Virus record (IMG/VR): IMGVR_UViG_3300022602_003472
Coordinates: 23 to 64,022 of that record
DNA: 64,000 nucleotides
Reading direction: 5' to 3' (one strand)
Source of the DNA: a virus
Lineage: Duplodnaviria; Caudoviricetes
The translations under genes and the position numbers were made by a program. Positions within the stretch are counted from its first letter, which is position 1. Every line of letters starts with the position of its first letter. A model generated the notes under the pieces. It had not been told where the DNA came from. It did not search any database and saw only the letters and a list, made by a program, of their open reading frames with translations. Shown here piece after piece: positions 1 through 13,582 of this stretch.

Positions 1-1458
<1,458 letters not shown>

Positions 1459-1465
1459 CTACTCC

Positions 1466-1756
1466 TCAGTTTTCAATAACGGCAAAAAGTTCTTCTTCTT
1501 TGAGGACAAGTAGGTCTTGCCCGTCAATCTTGATCTGTGTGCCTGCGTACTTGCCAAACAACACGCGATCGTTCACGCTAACATCCAGCGGGATATAGTT
1601 GCCGCTATCATCCTTGGTCCCTTTGCCCACAGCCAGCACTGTGCCTTGATCAGGCTTCTCTGCTGCGGTGTCAGGGATGACGATGCCGCCCTTCGTGACA
1701 GTTTCACTGTCCACGCGCTTCACTATGACCCGATTATTAAGCGGTCTCAGTTCCAT
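1466..1756 (-). CDS. groES: Co-chaperonin GroES
   Basis: [14 protein letters not shown]...[22 protein letters not shown]...VLFGKYAGT, a typical Cpn10. AGGAG SD upstream. Confidence 0.97.
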
Positions 1757-1783: not shown

Positions 1784-1810
1784 CTAGCACTCCATGAGTG
1801 GCAGTGCTAA
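1784..1810. promoter_or_regulatory. CIRCE operator (HrcA binding site) in the groESL leader
   Basis: CTAGCACTC-catgagtgg-CAGTGCTAA versus consensus TTAGCACTC-N9-GAGTGCTAA: 8/9 match in each arm with an exact 9-bp spacer, located between the promoter and the groES start. Confidence 0.88.
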
Positions 1811-1818
1811 CAGCTCAT

Positions 1819-1847
1819 AATATAATCGGAGATTGATACAAAATCAA
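1819..1847 (-). promoter_or_regulatory. Sigma70-type promoter of groESL
   Basis: Minus strand reads TTGATT-N17-TATATT, ending 8 nt upstream of the CIRCE. Confidence 0.6.
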
Positions 1848-2190
1848 GAGCCGGTTACGCATGCGTCCACTCCTCCGGCGACCTTTATCGTAGGTCCGTT
1901 CACTGCCGCCTAATACCACCTGCTCACGCAGCTGGCGCTTATCAAGCCTACGCACCCAGCGTCACGACCATGCCGTATAGTAGCGCCGTCAGGTCCCGGG
2001 ACCTAGGCTGCTGTGCTGCTCCAGCATGGAAAAGCAGTCAGCCACTAGCTCGTCACCAAGCGTTACTCGATAGATGCGCTGGACGACTGGGCTCTGGGCC
2101 CGCGCTCCCGAGTTGCCAGCTGTGCGGACCCTGGGTGTTGATCCTAGGCAGATTCCCATCAGCGGCAACTCTTCTGATGGCACACAGCTC
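1848..2190 (-). ncRNA. Putative large structured ncRNA of unknown family
   Basis: GC-rich intergenic segment with many helices: AGCUGUGUG/CGCACAGCU, CCAUCAG/CUGAUGG, an 8-bp pseudoknot GAGUUGCC/GGCAACUC, GGCUG/CAGCC, GCUGG/CCAGC, GACCU/AGGUC. A G-U pair favours the minus strand. A TAAACT late-promoter-like hexamer lies 6 nt upstream. Confidence 0.55.
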
Positions 2191-2199
2191 AGCATTAGT

Positions 2200-3372
2200 T
2201 TATGCCTGATTGGTATTTTCGCAAGCTGCGACCAAAGCTGCGTGCATCTCAGGATTTACCTCAGCAAAGCTTTCATTGCGAAGCTGGTCTAATCTTGATA
2301 TAGATCTTAATACTTCTGCTGATGTGAGATTGGGTGGTTGCCTTAACTGGGAAATTATTGTGTTCTTGTTATGCATGATCACCATAGACTCGTCGTGATT
2401 TGACCATGCAGCCAATCGGTCACATATCACAGTCTTTAAATCATCTGGCACATTGTTGAGTGCCAGATATGCAGGATCATATACCAAATGCCCCCAATGC
2501 TCATAGCGAGGCAGGATCTTTATCACTGTTTCCATAAAATCTATGGCAGTGTTGCAGTTAATCAATGACCACGATGTCAAAATGAGTAAGCTGTATCTGT
2601 GATTCAATACCGCTTGATAATGCAGCAAGTTTTCTAGCAACACTGACCAATCGGTGCCAGTGCGCTGGTAATCATTGATTGCTCCGATGCCATCAACGCT
2701 GCACTGCATTTCAATTGACTTGCACTGATCCAACAGAGACAGCATCTCTGCATCAAACAACACCGTGCAATTGGTAGTGATCACCACTTCTAGATTGCCC
2801 AAACCCTGTTGATCGTTGGCAATTCTTCTGAGCAGGTGTTTGAATGCATCTTGTTCAAGCGCAGGTTCACCGCCTACATATCTGAGCCTATCGAGCTTGC
2901 TGATATCAAAAGTTATACCAGTTAGATCTGGTCTCGACAGAGGCGTAGCACTCTTGCCCAAGGCTATTTCATCAACAATCCATTTGCTGCTGTTCCAGCT
3001 ACCACACATGCGACATTTAAGATTGCAGAGATTGCCAAAATCGTATTCTAACCAAACCAAACTGTGGTCAGTTGGTCGTCCATATCTCTCATTGAAAGCA
3101 ATGCGACTGGACCATGTGCCTATCTTCTCGTTTTGATAGCATTCCTTACAGCCTTTGATAGGCATGTTAGACAGCATTGCTGCCCTCAGCGAATCCATCC
3201 ACGCATGGTTGAATGGGTCTGGTTCATCCTTGGCCATGGGTTGACCAATTTGATGATTATCATCATGTGACCACTGGCAACAAGGCTGGCTGCCAAATCT
3301 TGGTTTATGCACCATATGTCTAAAAGGTGCAGCACAGTAAACATCATCATCAAGGTTAAATTTAGGTTCCAT
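2200..3372 (-). CDS. Radical SAM protein with N-terminal twitch/SPASM-like Cys domain
   Basis: CNLKCRMC (CxxxCxxC) and YVGGEP motifs; N-terminal YCAAPF...PCC...CKEC Cys cluster. Confidence 0.9.
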   Translation of the reverse strand: MEPKFNLDDDVYCAAPFRHMVHKPRFGSQPCCQWSHDDNHQIGQPMAKDEPDPFNHAWMDSLRAAMLSNMPIKGCKECYQNEKIGTWSSRIAFNERYGRPTDHSLVWLEYDFGNLCNLKCRMCGSWNSSKWIVDEIALGKSATPLSRPDLTGITFDISKLDRLRYVGGEPALEQDAFKHLLRRIANDQQGLGNLEVVITTNCTVLFDAEMLSLLDQCKSIEMQCSVDGIGAINDYQRTGTDWSVLLENLLHYQAVLNHRYSLLILTSWSLINCNTAIDFMETVIKILPRYEHWGHLVYDPAYLALNNVPDDLKTVICDRLAAWSNHDESMVIMHNKNTIISQLRQPPNLTSAEVLRSISRLDQLRNESFAEVNPEMHAALVAACENTNQA

Positions 3373-3462: not shown

Positions 3463-4485
3463 TCAAGCTGCCTTGCGGTGGCAGTTCTTTTCCACGAAAC
3501 GCTTCCAGTTACCAGGCATGGCCTTGCGCAAATCAGCGATCTTCAGCACCATGCGCAGGCTCAGCTCACGCAACTGCTTGCTGTGGTCATTGATATAGCC
3601 CATGACCTCAGCCTTGGTATCTGCGTCGAAGCCATAGCTGCCCAGCATGTTGCTGCGTTCGACCACATTGCGGATGTGCAGCAGTTTCTCACGAGCAGTG
3701 TCAATGCCGATGTCCATGTAATGGCAGCGGCTCATGATAGCCTCCAGGTGGTTGCCAATGCGTGCGCTCTTGATCTGATCAAACTTCACGTTGGTGATGA
3801 AGATAACACCGCCCTTGTATTCGAAGCTGTTGGGGATGTCCTTGCGCTCCAGATGCAGGCTGCGTGTGTTCCAGCTGATGCGCCGCGTCTTCTTGCTGTC
3901 CAGTGCTGCTTTCAGCACGTTCAAGCTGTCTTCGTCGTAGAGCACACCATCACAGTCGTCAAACACCAGCACCTGGCTGTCTTCACGGTATTCCCAGAGC
4001 TTCTCATACAGCACAGCAGCACTGATGCCACCGCTGATCACTTCATACATCTTGCCCTGTCCAGTGAGCTTGCCCAGCATGTCCAGCGTTTCATGTAGCG
4101 TGGTCTCCACGGTATGGCTCTTGCCGATGCCAGCAGGACCGCTGACCACCAAGCCCTTGACCGTGTTGCTAGCCACAGCCTTGGTCATCTCACCCAGGAT
4201 CTCAAACGTCTCGCGCTGATCGTGTGCAATCTCATCGTCGGTCTTGCTCAGCATTGGCGTTGTACTAGGCGAACCAGCATCCTTGGTAGTAGGTTGGAAG
4301 CAGTGGATGCCTTCCATGTAAACGCGGTTGCGCCCAGCGCGGAGATCAGCACCACCGTCACTGTCAACAGTGATGTACATGCCGTCCTTGTCGCGCTTGA
4401 GATTGTCCAGCAAGAGGAACGCACGGTCCGTGATAGTAGCCCCACCGCGGGTCCAACCTGAGCTAATGCGCACATACTGTTCCAT
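3463..4485 (-). CDS. AAA+ family ATPase (probable early gene)
   Basis: Walker A SGPAGIGKS, Walker B VLVFDDCD, sensor FITN, SRC Arg-finger. GGAGA SD and a sigma70 promoter upstream. Confidence 0.85.
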   Translation of the reverse strand: MEQYVRISSGWTRGGATITDRAFLLLDNLKRDKDGMYITVDSDGGADLRAGRNRVYMEGIHCFQPTTKDAGSPSTTPMLSKTDDEIAHDQRETFEILGEMTKAVASNTVKGLVVSGPAGIGKSHTVETTLHETLDMLGKLTGQGKMYEVISGGISAAVLYEKLWEYREDSQVLVFDDCDGVLYDEDSLNVLKAALDSKKTRRISWNTRSLHLERKDIPNSFEYKGGVIFITNVKFDQIKSARIGNHLEAIMSRCHYMDIGIDTAREKLLHIRNVVERSNMLGSYGFDADTKAEVMGYINDHSKQLRELSLRMVLKIADLRKAMPGNWKRFVEKNCHRKAA

Positions 4486-12644: not shown

Positions 12645-13145
12645 TTATTTAGCGTCTGTTTCGATTTCGCTAAGCTGTTTCAACAGTTCGTTGCGGTCCA
12701 TCATGGTTGCTTTCACATCAAGCGGTTCTTTATCGCTGCTCTTGGTAGCACGATCTAGCTTGAGCTTGTCTAGCTGTAACTTCAGCATCTTTAGCTTCTT
12801 GTCAACCTTCGCATTCTTAGCATCTACTGCTATCTTCAGCATCTGGCTGCTGCTGCTGAATATCTCACCAGCGTGACGTATCTCCACATTCATGCCCAGA
12901 TCCTGCAGATCCATGTGTGCCTTGATGGCAAGATCTGCCAGATGGTCCATCTCCACATCGTGTTCATCTTTGCCGCGCGCTGTGGACAGTTGCTTGTCAA
13001 TGTCATTGGCCAGTGCTAGTGCTGCATGTATGTCTGCATCACTCGGCGAGTCTATGGCTGCAGTATCCTCTGCGGTGTCATCAAGATCCTCAACAGATTC
13101 TATATCAAATGTGTCTTCAAGTGTCTTGAACCTATTGGCCATCAA
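12645..13145 (-). CDS. Putative terminase small subunit (gp16-like)
   Basis: 166 aa helical protein (DLQDLGMNVEIRHAGEIF...MLKIAVDAK...DRNELLKQL) in the packaging region; call rests on size, pattern and context. Confidence 0.5.
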   Translation of the reverse strand: MMANRFKTLEDTFDIESVEDLDDTAEDTAAIDSPSDADIHAALALANDIDKQLSTARGKDEHDVEMDHLADLAIKAHMDLQDLGMNVEIRHAGEIFSSSSQMLKIAVDAKNAKVDKKLKMLKLQLDKLKLDRATKSSDKEPLDVKATMMDRNELLKQLSEIETDAK

Positions 13146-13582
13146 CGTTTCCTCTTGGGCTTTGTGATATATATGTCATTTTCTGTTAAAATTCTGAAAA
13201 TCATGCCGTGCTTCTTGCAGTAACTCATTGCTGCCGCCCATTTAGCAGTGTTTAATATAAGGCTTACCTTGTCGCGCTTGCTTTTGGCATTCTCTACCAT
13301 GGCTTCTTTGGCAGGTTTGACCTCCACCACTTCTGCTCTGCGCTTGCCATTCTTGTCCTGGTACAGTACCATGAAGTCTGGCACGTATTGGCTGGGCTTT
13401 CCTGTGAGCGGATTTATATACGGTATCCTTATGCTCTCACTGGCCCACTGTATCACGCTTGGATGAGTGTCAAGGAAATTCATAACTGTGAGTTCCCAGC
13501 TACTGCGGAACACCACCTCCTGCTTGCCTATCAACTTGGCAGGATTCTTAGGGATAAATCGACCTTGGCTGTATTTGGTCAT
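13142..13582 (-). CDS. gp4: Head completion nuclease (T4 gp4-like, TnsA-type endonuclease)
   Basis: FRSSWE...WASESIRIPY...YVPDF...VEVKP...KWAAA...FRILTE. Confidence 0.9.
   Translation of the reverse strand: MTKYSQGRFIPKNPAKLIGKQEVVFRSSWELTVMNFLDTHPSVIQWASESIRIPYINPLTGKPSQYVPDFMVLYQDKNGKRRAEVVEVKPAKEAMVENAKSKRDKVSLILNTAKWAAAMSYCKKHGMIFRILTENDIYITKPKRKR

What the first reader, a model, noticed from the sequence alone, without database searches (positions are those of the whole stretch)
1848..2202. Candidate novel ~340 nt pseudoknotted ncRNA upstream of groESL
Seen on the minus strand: P1 AGCUGUGUG (2189-2181) pairs with CGCACAGCU (2126-2118). It encloses P2, CCAUCAG (2180-2174)/CUGAUGG (2162-2156), and a P3 hairpin at about 2148-2130. 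The P2 loop GAGUUGCC (2171-2164) is perfectly complementary to GGCAACUC (2117-2110) immediately 3' of P1, giving a three-way junction locked by an 8-bp pseudoknot. Further hairpins follow (UCGUC/GACGA, GGCUG/CAGCC, GCUGG/CCAGC, GACCU/AGGUC), with palindromes AGGTCCCGGGACCT (1991-2004) and ACGCATGCGT (1857-1866). The segment is GC-richer than its flanks, has no credible ORF, and starts 6 nt after TAAACT (2202-2197), the spacing seen at late promoters here. I found no tmRNA, RNase P, SRP or hammerhead signature. Inference: a late-expressed structured RNA or ribozyme of an unrecognised class.
Basis: partly seen in the sequence, partly recalled or inferred. Interest (0 to 1): 0.75.

Follow-up and report, generated by a model that had tools for sequence, protein, structure and literature searches.

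The report
Unclassified structured RNA beside phage groESL
A small clade of giant T4-like freshwater phages carries a conserved, non-coding gene of about 340 bases for a highly folded RNA of no known family, just upstream of the phages' own chaperonin genes; what the RNA does is still unknown.

Summary
The segment (window about 2190-1850, minus strand) is a real conserved non-coding element. It occurs once per contig, in 13 distinct variants, always directly upstream of groES, and only in phages whose GroES is at least 90% identical. It is far better conserved than silent sites of groEL (0.72-0.98 against 0.49-0.79). It has frameshifting indels and no codon periodicity. 98.8% of predicted pair cells form pairs, and 11 pairs have compensatory double changes (2.2 in shuffles). 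G-U pairs, alignment-level folding and promoter direction all favour the groES-sense strand. No Rfam 15 family, tRNA or tmRNA matches.

- The 8-bp pseudoknot is not supported by covariation.
- TAAACT is the -10 box of a sigma70-type promoter. A conserved -35 TTGC lies 16-17 nt upstream in 13 of 13 variants, in four different upstream contexts. It is not this phage's late motif, which is ATAAATA.
- A second conserved sigma70 promoter plus a CIRCE operator separates the element from groES.

My best reading is a stand-alone, host-polymerase-transcribed structured RNA of a new family. Its function and its ends are not shown.

The parts
2197..2224 (-). Sigma70-type promoter of the RNA: -35 TTGCGA (2224-2219), 16-nt spacer, -10 TAAACT (2202-2197). 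The predicted start is near 2190.
   Evidence: TTGC[GTA][AT], then 16-17 nt, then TAAA[CAT]T is present in 13 of 13 variants. The spacer sequence varies, and the upstream context differs in four ways. It scores 8 of 12 to consensus, below the scan's threshold, so it was not listed. Inferred; no mapped 5' end.
1848..2190 (-). Conserved structured non-coding RNA, about 340 nt. Its ends are inferred from conservation and from the promoter position.
   Evidence: Model R1 scores 443.5 bits over 1838-2203. There are 13 distinct homologues. Identity is 0.72-0.98 against 0.49-0.79 at groEL fourfold sites. It is non-coding. Contigs from 4 of 4 RNA libraries lie within 1864-2165.
2110..2189 (-). 5' domain: a three-way junction of P1 (2189-2181/2126-2118), P2 (2180-2174/2162-2156) and P3 (2148-2143/2134-2130), followed by GGCAACUC (2117-2110).
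   Evidence: P2 has 4 of 7 pairs changed on both sides and P3 has 2 of 5, all in the L012 lineage. P1 is invariant or varies by G-U wobble only. The pseudoknot between the P2 loop and 2117-2110 is not supported.
1851..2109 (-). Central and 3' multi-helix domain: about 12 helices inside a long-range closing helix in the consensus model. It includes the hairpins at 2004-1991 and about 1897-1880.
   Evidence: The RNAalifold consensus is. Compensatory changes occur in helices 9, 13, 14 and 15; helix 14 is G-C in 8 rows and U-A in 5 rows. Helix 15 is replaced by a shorter hairpin of different sequence in L012. The long-range helices never covary, so they are model only.
1819..1847 (-). groES promoter: -35 TTGATT (1847-1842), 17-nt spacer, -10 TATATT (1824-1819).
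   Evidence: Listed by the scan. The hexamers are conserved and the spacer varies in all 11 variants that reach this far.
1784..1810 (-). CIRCE-like inverted repeat (HrcA operator type): TTAGCACTG, 9 nt, GAGTGCTAG.
   Evidence: Read and conserved in the variants. A regex found it in 3 of 3 clade loci tested and in 0 of 29 more divergent groES phage loci. The consensus is recalled, not taken from a tool.
1466..1756 (-). groES (96 aa), with Shine-Dalgarno AGGAGA at 1767-1762.
   Evidence: phrog_3188 co-chaperonin GroES, E 2e-27; ORF.
1..1452 (-). groEL, cut by the window end (484 aa held).
   Evidence: PF00118 relatives. The nearest named cellular GroELs are about 70-71% identical.

Best explanation
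The segment is a separate gene for a highly structured non-coding RNA of about 340 nt, belonging to a family not yet described. The host's sigma70 RNA polymerase transcribes it from its own promoter (-35 at 2224-2219, -10 at 2202-2197, start near 2190), in the same direction as groES. It ends at or near the stem just before the groES promoter, around 1850. It most likely acts through its folded shape, as a protein-binding scaffold or decoy made from early in infection, and not as a regulator of groESL in cis.

Shown: conservation above neutral, non-coding nature, conserved base pairing with compensatory changes, strand preference, conserved promoter-like hexamers, and presence in RNA libraries.

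Inferred: the promoter's activity, both RNA ends, that the RNA is a discrete stable molecule, and its mode of action.
For: (1) Purifying selection. Element identity against groEL fourfold-site identity is 0.98/0.79 (L003), 0.93/0.74 (L005), 0.91/0.63 (L006), 0.95/0.66 (L009) and 0.72/0.49 (L012).
(2) Non-coding. There are 1-, 2- and 8-nt indels, no frame open in all 13 variants, and variable columns at 38/39/39 against 10/7/43 for groES.
(3) Structure. 110 predicted pairs; 98.8% of 1398 cells paired; 11 pairs with double changes against 2.2 in shuffles (0 of 500) and 0-2 in slid controls. Alignment-level z is -3.37, with 0 of 100 shuffles as low.
(4) Strand. 186 G-U cells against 9 A-C cells; 98.8% paired on this strand against 86.1% on the other. 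The opposite-strand consensus reaches only -94.1 kcal/mol, z -2.13.
(5) Own promoter. TTGC[GTA][AT], 16-17 nt, TAAA[CAT]T in 13 of 13 variants with a variable spacer, whether the upstream neighbour is a radical-SAM cassette, the AAA gene directly, a 62%-identical AAA variant, or a divergently oriented small gene.
(6) A second conserved sigma70 promoter and CIRCE lie between the element and groES, so groES does not need the element as a leader.
(7) Contigs from 4 of 4 lake metatranscriptome runs (4 studies) lie within 1864-2165 with few differences. Among the pieces listed, none joins the element to groES or to the upstream gene.
(8) No Rfam 15 family at gathering score or at E up to 10, in the window or in three relatives. 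No tRNA or tmRNA.
Against: - The single sequence folds no better than its shuffles (z 0.00).
- There is no canonical intrinsic terminator at the 3' end. The local 3' hairpin is no more stable than shuffles (z -0.80 to +1.07 in 4 variants), so read-through into groESL is possible.
- The promoter matches consensus at only 8 of 12 positions and was not listed by the scan.
- Diversity is small: 13 distinct sequences in effectively two or three lineages. 9 of the 11 compensated pairs come from the single L012 lineage. The counts were made on an alignment fitted to a structure predicted from these same sequences.
- Contigs from RNA libraries show neither strand, ends nor level. Parts of the neighbouring AAA gene (3481-3600) are covered in 2 of the 4 runs, and groES is covered too. 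The uncovered radical-SAM gene is a variable cassette, so it is not a valid silent control.
- No partner protein is known. No reverse transcriptase or Ro60/TROVE gene was found in the three records searched.
Confidence: 0.55

Rival explanations
1. The element is a long 5' leader of groESL. Transcripts from the upstream promoter read through the element, the downstream promoter and CIRCE into groES-groEL. The folded leader then controls stability, processing or translation, for example as a sensor of temperature or a ligand, giving a second route of expression that is not started at the HrcA-controlled promoter.
For: The element is on the same strand as groES and directly adjacent to it in every complete copy. 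Sequence similarity to relatives that carry a different upstream gene begins at the element's 5' edge, so the element travels with groESL. There is no canonical terminator between the element and groES. The element and CIRCE are present together in this clade, and both are absent from more divergent groES phages.
Against: A conserved sigma70 promoter with its operator lies between the element and groES, about 90 nt from the start codon. I saw no alternative pairing that links the element to the Shine-Dalgarno sequence. The 7-nt complementarity to CIRCE lies inside helix 13, whose change in L012 is compensated within the helix. About 340 nt with some 16 helices is far larger than known heat-shock leaders (recalled). 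Among the pieces listed, no RNA-library contig bridges 1790-1863; this is only a weak hint.
Confidence: 0.2
2. It is a very divergent or reduced member of a known RNA class (RNase P RNA, tmRNA, group I intron, a large orphan RNA such as GOLLD, ROOL or HEARO, or 6S RNA) that covariance models fail to recognise.
For: The size (about 340 nt) and multi-helix architecture are in the range of RNase P RNA and tmRNA (recalled). Huge phages are reported to carry translation-related RNAs (recalled).
Against: No family reaches even E = 10 over the element in the window or in three relatives. ARAGORN finds no tmRNA. The 5' and 3' ends do not pair with each other, as they do in RNase P RNA and tmRNA (consensus; the comparison is recalled). 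The three-way junction does not carry the hammerhead core in any rotation (inspection; core recalled).
Confidence: 0.08
3. It acts in DNA replication or recombination, for example as a structured primer transcript forming an R-loop at an origin (as with ColE1 RNA II or the T4 origin transcripts), or as a DNA-level site.
For: It is transcribed from a sigma70-type promoter. It lies 2.5-5.6 kb from the uvsY-like, uvsX and gp32 genes. T4 oriF lies in uvsY (recalled).
Against: G-U pairs (186 cells against 9 A-C) and strand-specific folding point to selection on an RNA fold, not on duplex DNA. The element is GC-rich, with no AT-rich unwinding stretch or repeats. It sits inside a long block of genes on one strand. 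Cumulative GC skew shows no turn at the element, though the window ends 1.8 kb away.
Confidence: 0.06
4. It has no function of its own: a chance fold in a GC-rich remnant of captured host DNA, or a hidden small protein gene, conserved only because the phages are close relatives.
For: The single-sequence z-score is 0.00. The clade is narrow. A stop-free plus-strand frame of 122 codons spans 1838-2203 in the window.
Against: The element is much better conserved than silent sites of the adjoining groEL in all 5 comparisons with a full-length or near full-length groEL. Compensatory changes exceed the controls. That frame is open in only 2 of 13 variants. There is no codon periodicity. Pfam finds nothing in the four small ORFs. 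The exact two-block pattern found no true copy in 185,579 species genomes; its 2 hits were chance.
Confidence: 0.05

Closest known systems
Large orphan structured RNAs linked with phages and metagenomes (GOLLD, ROOL, HEARO, raiA)
   Same: It is long for a bacterial or phage non-coding RNA (over 300 nt), has many helices and conserved junction sequences, was found by comparative analysis of uncultivated sequence, is phage-borne, and has no known function.
   Different: No covariance-model match to any Rfam 15 family; that these classes are in Rfam is recalled. It is shorter than GOLLD and ROOL (recalled). There are no tRNA genes in the 64-kb window. It is restricted to one narrow phage clade. 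Loop palindromes that could mediate self-association are not conserved.
Cis-acting leaders of heat-shock genes (RNA thermometers such as ROSE; riboswitch-type 5' UTRs)
   Same: It lies upstream of a heat-shock operon on the same strand and is always adjacent to it.
   Different: It is separated from the ORF by a conserved promoter and operator. It is several times larger (recalled). No pairing with the ribosome-binding site was found.
6S RNA and other protein-sequestering RNAs
   Same: It would be a stable RNA made by sigma70 polymerase that works through its shape and not through coding or antisense pairing. This is the mode of action proposed here (inference).
   Different: 6S RNA is a rod of about 185 nt with a central bubble (recalled). 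This RNA is branched, with a three-way junction and a multi-helix domain. No Rfam match.
Hammerhead and other small self-cleaving ribozymes built on three-way junctions
   Same: The 5' domain is a compact three-way junction with conserved joining strands: GA(A/G)UCUG between P2 and P3, and GUC between P3 and P1.
   Different: The junction strands do not match the hammerhead core in any rotation (inspection; core recalled). No Rfam ribozyme family matches. Cleavage was not tested.
Candidate structured RNAs mined from IMG/VR intergenic regions (Fremin et al. 2023, PMC10690425)
   Same: That study mined the same kind of data, IMG/VR intergenic regions with covariation screens, so parts of this element may already be among its 8,495 unnamed candidates.
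   Different: Its candidates are 29-151 bases long (passages read), while this element is about 340 nt. Its main text does not mention groES or chaperonins (0 occurrences).

Membership tests
Any Rfam 15 family | Covariance-model match at the family's gathering score | tested here: not met
   0 matches in the whole 64-kb window at gathering score. At E up to 10 over 1400-2700 there were only two chance snoRNA hits, both outside the element. Nothing over the element in three relatives.
tmRNA / tRNA | tRNA-like domain (and, for tmRNA, a tag reading frame) recognised by ARAGORN | tested here: not met
   0 genes in the window.
RNase P RNA | 5' and 3' ends paired (P1), long-range P4 helix with its universally conserved nucleotides (features recalled) | tested here: not met
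   No RNase P model hit at E up to 10. In the consensus fold the 5' helix closes only an 80-nt domain and does not pair with the 3' end.
Hammerhead ribozyme | Three-way junction carrying the conserved core strands and cleavage triplet (recalled) | tested here: not met
   The junction strands are 0 nt, GA(A/G)UCUG and GUC. They do not fit the core in any rotation. No Rfam hit. Self-cleavage was not assayed.
Cis-regulatory 5' leader (riboswitch or RNA thermometer) | Lies within the 5' UTR, between the transcription start and the regulated ORF | tested here: inconclusive
   A conserved sigma70 promoter and CIRCE lie between the element and groES, so it is outside that transcript's UTR. With no canonical terminator, read-through from the upstream promoter cannot be excluded.
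Cis-regulatory 5' leader (riboswitch or RNA thermometer) | Expression platform: alternative pairing with a terminator or the ribosome-binding site | tested here: not met
   None was seen in the consensus fold or in the local 3' folds of 4 variants. The element ends about 85 nt before the Shine-Dalgarno sequence.
Stand-alone non-coding RNA gene | Own promoter | tested here: met
   The -35 and -10 hexamers are conserved at 16-17 nt spacing in 13 of 13 variants and four upstream contexts. This is sequence evidence only; activity was not tested.
Stand-alone non-coding RNA gene | Own terminator or defined 3' end | tested here: not met
   No terminator-like site at 1840-1870. The 3' hairpin is not more stable than shuffles. 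Only a U-rich tail that overlaps the groES -35 box.
Stand-alone non-coding RNA gene | Discrete transcript of the predicted size | not testable with these tools
   Only assembled contigs of RNA libraries were available. They lie within 1864-2165 in 4 of 4 runs but cannot show ends, strand or level.
   88.5% of 104 cells are paired, the same as shuffles (267 of 500). There is 1 compensated pair. The central pair is broken in 7 of 13 variants, and L008 has two uncompensated loop changes. A GCC/GGC core is invariant, so a shorter contact is not excluded.
CIRCE / HrcA operator (neighbouring feature) | 9-nt inverted repeat with a 9-nt spacer close to the consensus (recalled), overlapping the promoter or start of a chaperone operon | tested here: met
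   TTAGCACTG, 9 nt, GAGTGCTAG at 1810-1784, starting 8 nt after the -10 box and 27 nt before the groES start codon. It is conserved in the variants. HrcA binding was not tested.

The most novel reading that the evidence does not exclude
This is the founding member of a new class of large structured RNA peculiar to giant T4-like phages. It would have a complex tertiary fold that works as a ribozyme, an RNA-only assembly or the core of a ribonucleoprotein. It is made by the host polymerase beside a phage chaperonin operon that the phage has placed under the host's HrcA/CIRCE heat-shock control.
Probability: 0.2. Interest if true: 0.85.

Novelty: categorically new. Interest (0 to 1): 0.6.

Why it matters
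Non-coding RNAs longer than 300 nt with many conserved helices are rare in bacteria and phages. Those that have been understood turned out to be ribozymes, ribonucleoprotein cores or self-assembling RNA cages (recalled).

This one has no detectable relative among 4227 Rfam families. It is under clear purifying selection and appears to have its own host-type promoter. It sits in genomes of roughly 500 kb whose biology is almost unknown.

'Categorically new' here means a new RNA family by sequence and structure. Whether its function is new cannot be said yet. The clade is narrow, the statistical power is limited, and part of the element may already be listed, unnamed, in a 2023 catalogue whose supplements I could not open.

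The neighbouring finding has its own interest. A phage groESL under a CIRCE operator suggests that the phage ties its chaperonin supply to the host's sensor of unfolded protein.

Tried and rejected
- **Relatives through the radical-SAM protein:** none found.
- **GenBank phage records:** no DNA match to the intergenic region among 50,697 records in distant mode. The 6-kb query matched only a bacterial GroL.
- **Six exact-pattern scans of viral contigs from different conserved blocks** (one viral scan left unused), plus one metagenome scan and one species-genome scan. All true hits belong to the same clade.
  - The extra loci had no model match: 10, 11 of 21, and 10.
  - L073 and L074 share an 18-mer that lies inside a 641-aa ORF.
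  - L102 and L103 (actinobacterial genomes) and nine metagenome contigs share only the two pattern blocks.
- **Model R1 on more distant groES phages:** no match in 44 more divergent groES loci, nor in five larger related records, two of them 98-100% complete.
- **Partner proteins:** no RVT_1 or TROVE in three records.
- **Coincidences checked and dropped:**
  - The loop CUACGAU is identical to the groES start region in the window, but that region varies in relatives.
  - GGCAGUG is complementary to CIRCE, but its change in L012 is compensated inside helix 13.
  - A possible GUUG/CAAC contact between the P2 and P3 loops is not kept in L008 or L012.
  - The palindromic loops are not conserved.
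- **RNA libraries:**
  - No cover over 2281-3000 in 4 runs. That gene is a variable cassette, so the hole says nothing.
  - Among the listed pieces, no contig covers 1790-1863.
- **Literature:** five searches found nothing on a structured RNA beside phage groES or on CIRCE in phages (listings only). A 2026 preprint on non-coding sequence space has no occurrence of groES, chaperonin, phage or CIRCE.
- **Failed script:** one script gave no answer and was rerun in a smaller form.
Full report
**Setting.** The window is a 64-kb IMG/VR virus record that CheckV rates 12% complete, which implies a genome of about 500 kb. A related contig of 216 kb is rated 42% complete. The window encodes T4-type functions: UvsX/RecA, a UvsY-like protein, gp32 and a T4-type large terminase.

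On the minus strand the gene order is:
- an AAA-type ATPase (4485-3463);
- a twitch-domain radical-SAM protein (3372-2200; NF033640, 217 bits);
- a 443-nt gap (2199-1757);
- groES (1756-1466);
- groEL (1452-1, cut by the window end).

**The observation.** The segment has 0.56-0.61 G+C against 0.42 in the radical-SAM gene, but groEL is 0.51-0.57. On its own, the sequence folds no better than dinucleotide shuffles: z is 0.00 on the minus strand and -1.27 on the plus strand. The case therefore rests on comparison with relatives.

**Relatives.** A GroES-based scan of viral contigs gave 58 loci.
- The 443-nt gap is homologous (75-96% identity) in 13 of them, all with GroES at least 90% identical. 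A 14th locus, cut by its contig end, holds the last 71 nt.
- Six pattern scans of viral contigs, one metagenome scan and one scan of species genomes added only members of the same clade. All other hits were chance.
- Covariance model R1 found one copy per record in three records.
- R1 found none in 44 more divergent groES loci, nor in five larger related phage records, two of them 98-100% complete.
- In those divergent phages the upstream ORF ends mostly 77-176 nt before groES, and no CIRCE is present (0 of 29 loci).
- The family as found comprises 13 distinct sequences in 15 aligned rows.

**It is selected and non-coding.** The table gives identity to the window over the element and at fourfold-degenerate sites of groEL.

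| Locus | Element identity | groEL fourfold-site identity |
|---|---|---|
| L003 | 0.98 | 0.79 |
| L005 | 0.93 | 0.74 |
| L006 | 0.91 | 0.63 |
| L009 | 0.95 | 0.66 |
| L012 | 0.72 | 0.49 |

- The alignment has 1-, 2- and 8-nt indels.
- No reading frame is open in all variants. The stop-free plus-strand frame across 1838-2203 exists in only 2 of 13.
- Variable columns fall 38/39/39 by position mod 3, against 10/7/43 for groES.
- Pfam finds nothing in the four small ORFs.

**It has a conserved fold on the groES-sense strand.**
- RNAalifold predicts 110 pairs in 16 helices. The 5' domain is a three-way junction (P1, P2, P3). A multi-helix domain follows, closed in the model by a long-range helix.
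- On the 13 distinct sequences, 98.8% of 1398 pair cells are standard pairs. 11 pairs have changes on both sides, against 2.2 +/- 1.0 in shuffles (0 of 500) and 0-2 when partners are slid.
- P2 carries four compensated pairs and P3 two. Helix 14 switches between G-C (8 rows) and U-A (5 rows). Helix 15 is replaced in L012 by a shorter hairpin of different sequence.
- At alignment level (6 of the 13 sequences, the most divergent ones), the consensus energy is -120.5 kcal/mol against -100.05 +/- 6.07 for column shuffles (z -3.37, 0 of 100). SCI is 0.87 against 0.737.
- There are 186 G-U cells against 9 A-C cells. The same pairs would be only 86.1% paired on the other strand. The opposite strand reaches -94.1 kcal/mol, z -2.13.

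Caveats apply. The structure was predicted from these sequences and A2 was fitted to it. Nine of the 11 compensated pairs come from the L012 lineage. P1 and the long-range helices show only invariance or wobble changes.

**The pseudoknot.** The proposed 8-bp pairing is perfect in 4 of 13 distinct variants.
- Six variants have an uncompensated A-to-C change in the 3' strand.
- L008 has two uncompensated loop changes.
- L012 and L014 differ on both strands, with one compensated pair.

Overall 88.5% of cells pair, no better than shuffles (267 of 500). A GCC/GGC core never varies. I call the pseudoknot unsupported but not excluded.

**Transcription signals.**
- The phage's enriched upstream motif is ATAAATA. 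11 of its 12 occurrences lie within 120 nt upstream of ORFs, typically 15-30 nt before a Shine-Dalgarno sequence and ATG. It resembles the T4 late promoter (recalled).
- TAAACT is not enriched (4 of 30 occurrences upstream of ORFs; CATAAACT occurs 3 times against 2.5 expected).
- Instead, in 13 of 13 variants TAAA[CAT]T lies 16-17 nt downstream of TTGC[GTA][AT], and the spacer differs in sequence.
- This holds in four upstream contexts: the end of a radical-SAM gene; a 28-nt gap after the AAA gene; a gap after a 62%-identical AAA variant; and the gap next to a divergently oriented 77-aa gene in L012.
- That is the signature of a sigma70-type promoter (window -35 at 2224-2219, -10 at 2202-2197). 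It places the start near 2190, at the foot of P1.
- At the other end, the last conserved bases of the element run straight into a second promoter, TTGATT-17-TATATT (1847-1819), which the scan lists. Its hexamers are conserved and its spacer varies.
- That promoter is followed by a CIRCE-type inverted repeat (1810-1784), a Shine-Dalgarno sequence and groES.
- No canonical terminator separates the two units. Only a U-rich tail overlaps the groES -35 box.

**Module structure.** The radical-SAM gene is a variable cassette.
- It is absent in three kinds of relatives.
- Elsewhere it is only 47-54% identical in protein, while the flanking AAA gene (90-96%) and groES (96-100%) are nearly the same.
- The element's 5' edge is the boundary of that variable site.
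- Element, promoter, CIRCE and groESL always stay together.

The phage GroEL is about 70-71% identical to the nearest named cellular proteins (Burkholderiaceae, other Betaproteobacteria, Chromatiales) and 76-86% identical to other phage clades. The operon is therefore an old phage gene, not a recent capture. That argues against the element being a fresh host fragment.

**Expression.** Five runs on record as RNA hold a small share of the words of 1400-2400. In all 4 runs laid (4 studies), contigs lie within the element:
- X19: 1864-2046, with 1 difference in 183 nt;
- X22: 1873-2092, with 2 differences;
- X21: 1916-2103, with 4 differences;
- X23: pieces over 1885-2165.

Among the pieces listed, none joins the element to groES or to the upstream gene. 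This shows presence in RNA libraries, nothing more. Contigs give no ends, strand or level, and groES and part of the AAA gene are covered too. The uncovered radical-SAM gene is a variable cassette, so it is not a valid control.

**Comparison with known families.**
- No Rfam 15 family matches at gathering score in the window, or at E up to 10 in the region or in three relatives.
- There is no tRNA or tmRNA.
- The architecture does not pair the 5' end with the 3' end, as RNase P RNA and tmRNA do (recalled).
- The junction strands do not fit the hammerhead core (recalled).
- No reverse transcriptase or Ro60 gene, which would suggest retron-type or Y-RNA-type partners, is present in the three records searched.
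- Five literature searches found no description of such an RNA or of CIRCE in a phage (listings only).
- A 2023 catalogue of candidate structured RNAs mined IMG/VR intergenic regions. Its candidates are 29-151 bases long, and its text does not mention groES (passages read). Its supplements were closed, so I cannot exclude that fragments of this element are listed there.

**Verdict.** The element is a real, selected, structured non-coding feature of a new family.
- Most likely it is a separate RNA gene read by the host polymerase (0.55).
- It may instead be a read-through leader of groESL (0.2).
- Remaining weight goes to an unrecognised known class (0.08), a replication-related transcript (0.06) and no function of its own (0.05).

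Its mode of action, binding a protein through its fold, is inference only.

Noticed in passing
window 1784-1847 (minus strand): The phage groESL has a conserved sigma70-type promoter (TTGATT-17-TATATT) followed at once by a CIRCE-type inverted repeat, the operator type bound by the bacterial heat-shock repressor HrcA. It is present in all variants of this clade that reach that far, and absent by regex from 29 more divergent groES phage loci. Five literature searches found no report of CIRCE in a phage.
   Followed up: partly
window 2200-3372 (minus strand): The twitch-domain radical-SAM gene (NF033640, 217 bits) is a variable cassette. It is missing in several close relatives and only 47-54% identical in protein in others, while the AAA gene and groES on either side are 90-100% identical.
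   Followed up: partly
window-wide, e.g. 45610, 61855, 54652, 41904, 16432: ATAAATA (often cATAAATAt) has 11 of its 12 occurrences within 120 nt upstream of ORFs, usually 15-30 nt before a Shine-Dalgarno sequence and ATG. It looks like this phage's version of the T4 late promoter.
   Followed up: partly
window 1838-2203 (plus strand): A stop-free frame of 122 codons runs antisense through the whole element in the window and in L091 only (2 of 13 variants). It is a by-product of the GC-rich sequence, not a gene.
   Followed up: yes
window 13142-13582 (minus strand): A 146-aa protein carries a TnsA-like endonuclease N-terminal domain (PF08722, E 1.9e-21) inside a block of otherwise unannotated phage genes.
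   Followed up: no
L012 3245-3478 (minus strand of the locus): In the most divergent relative, the AAA and radical-SAM genes are replaced by a divergently oriented 77-aa hydrophobic ORF that follows a strong terminator-like hairpin after the uvsY-like gene.
   Followed up: no
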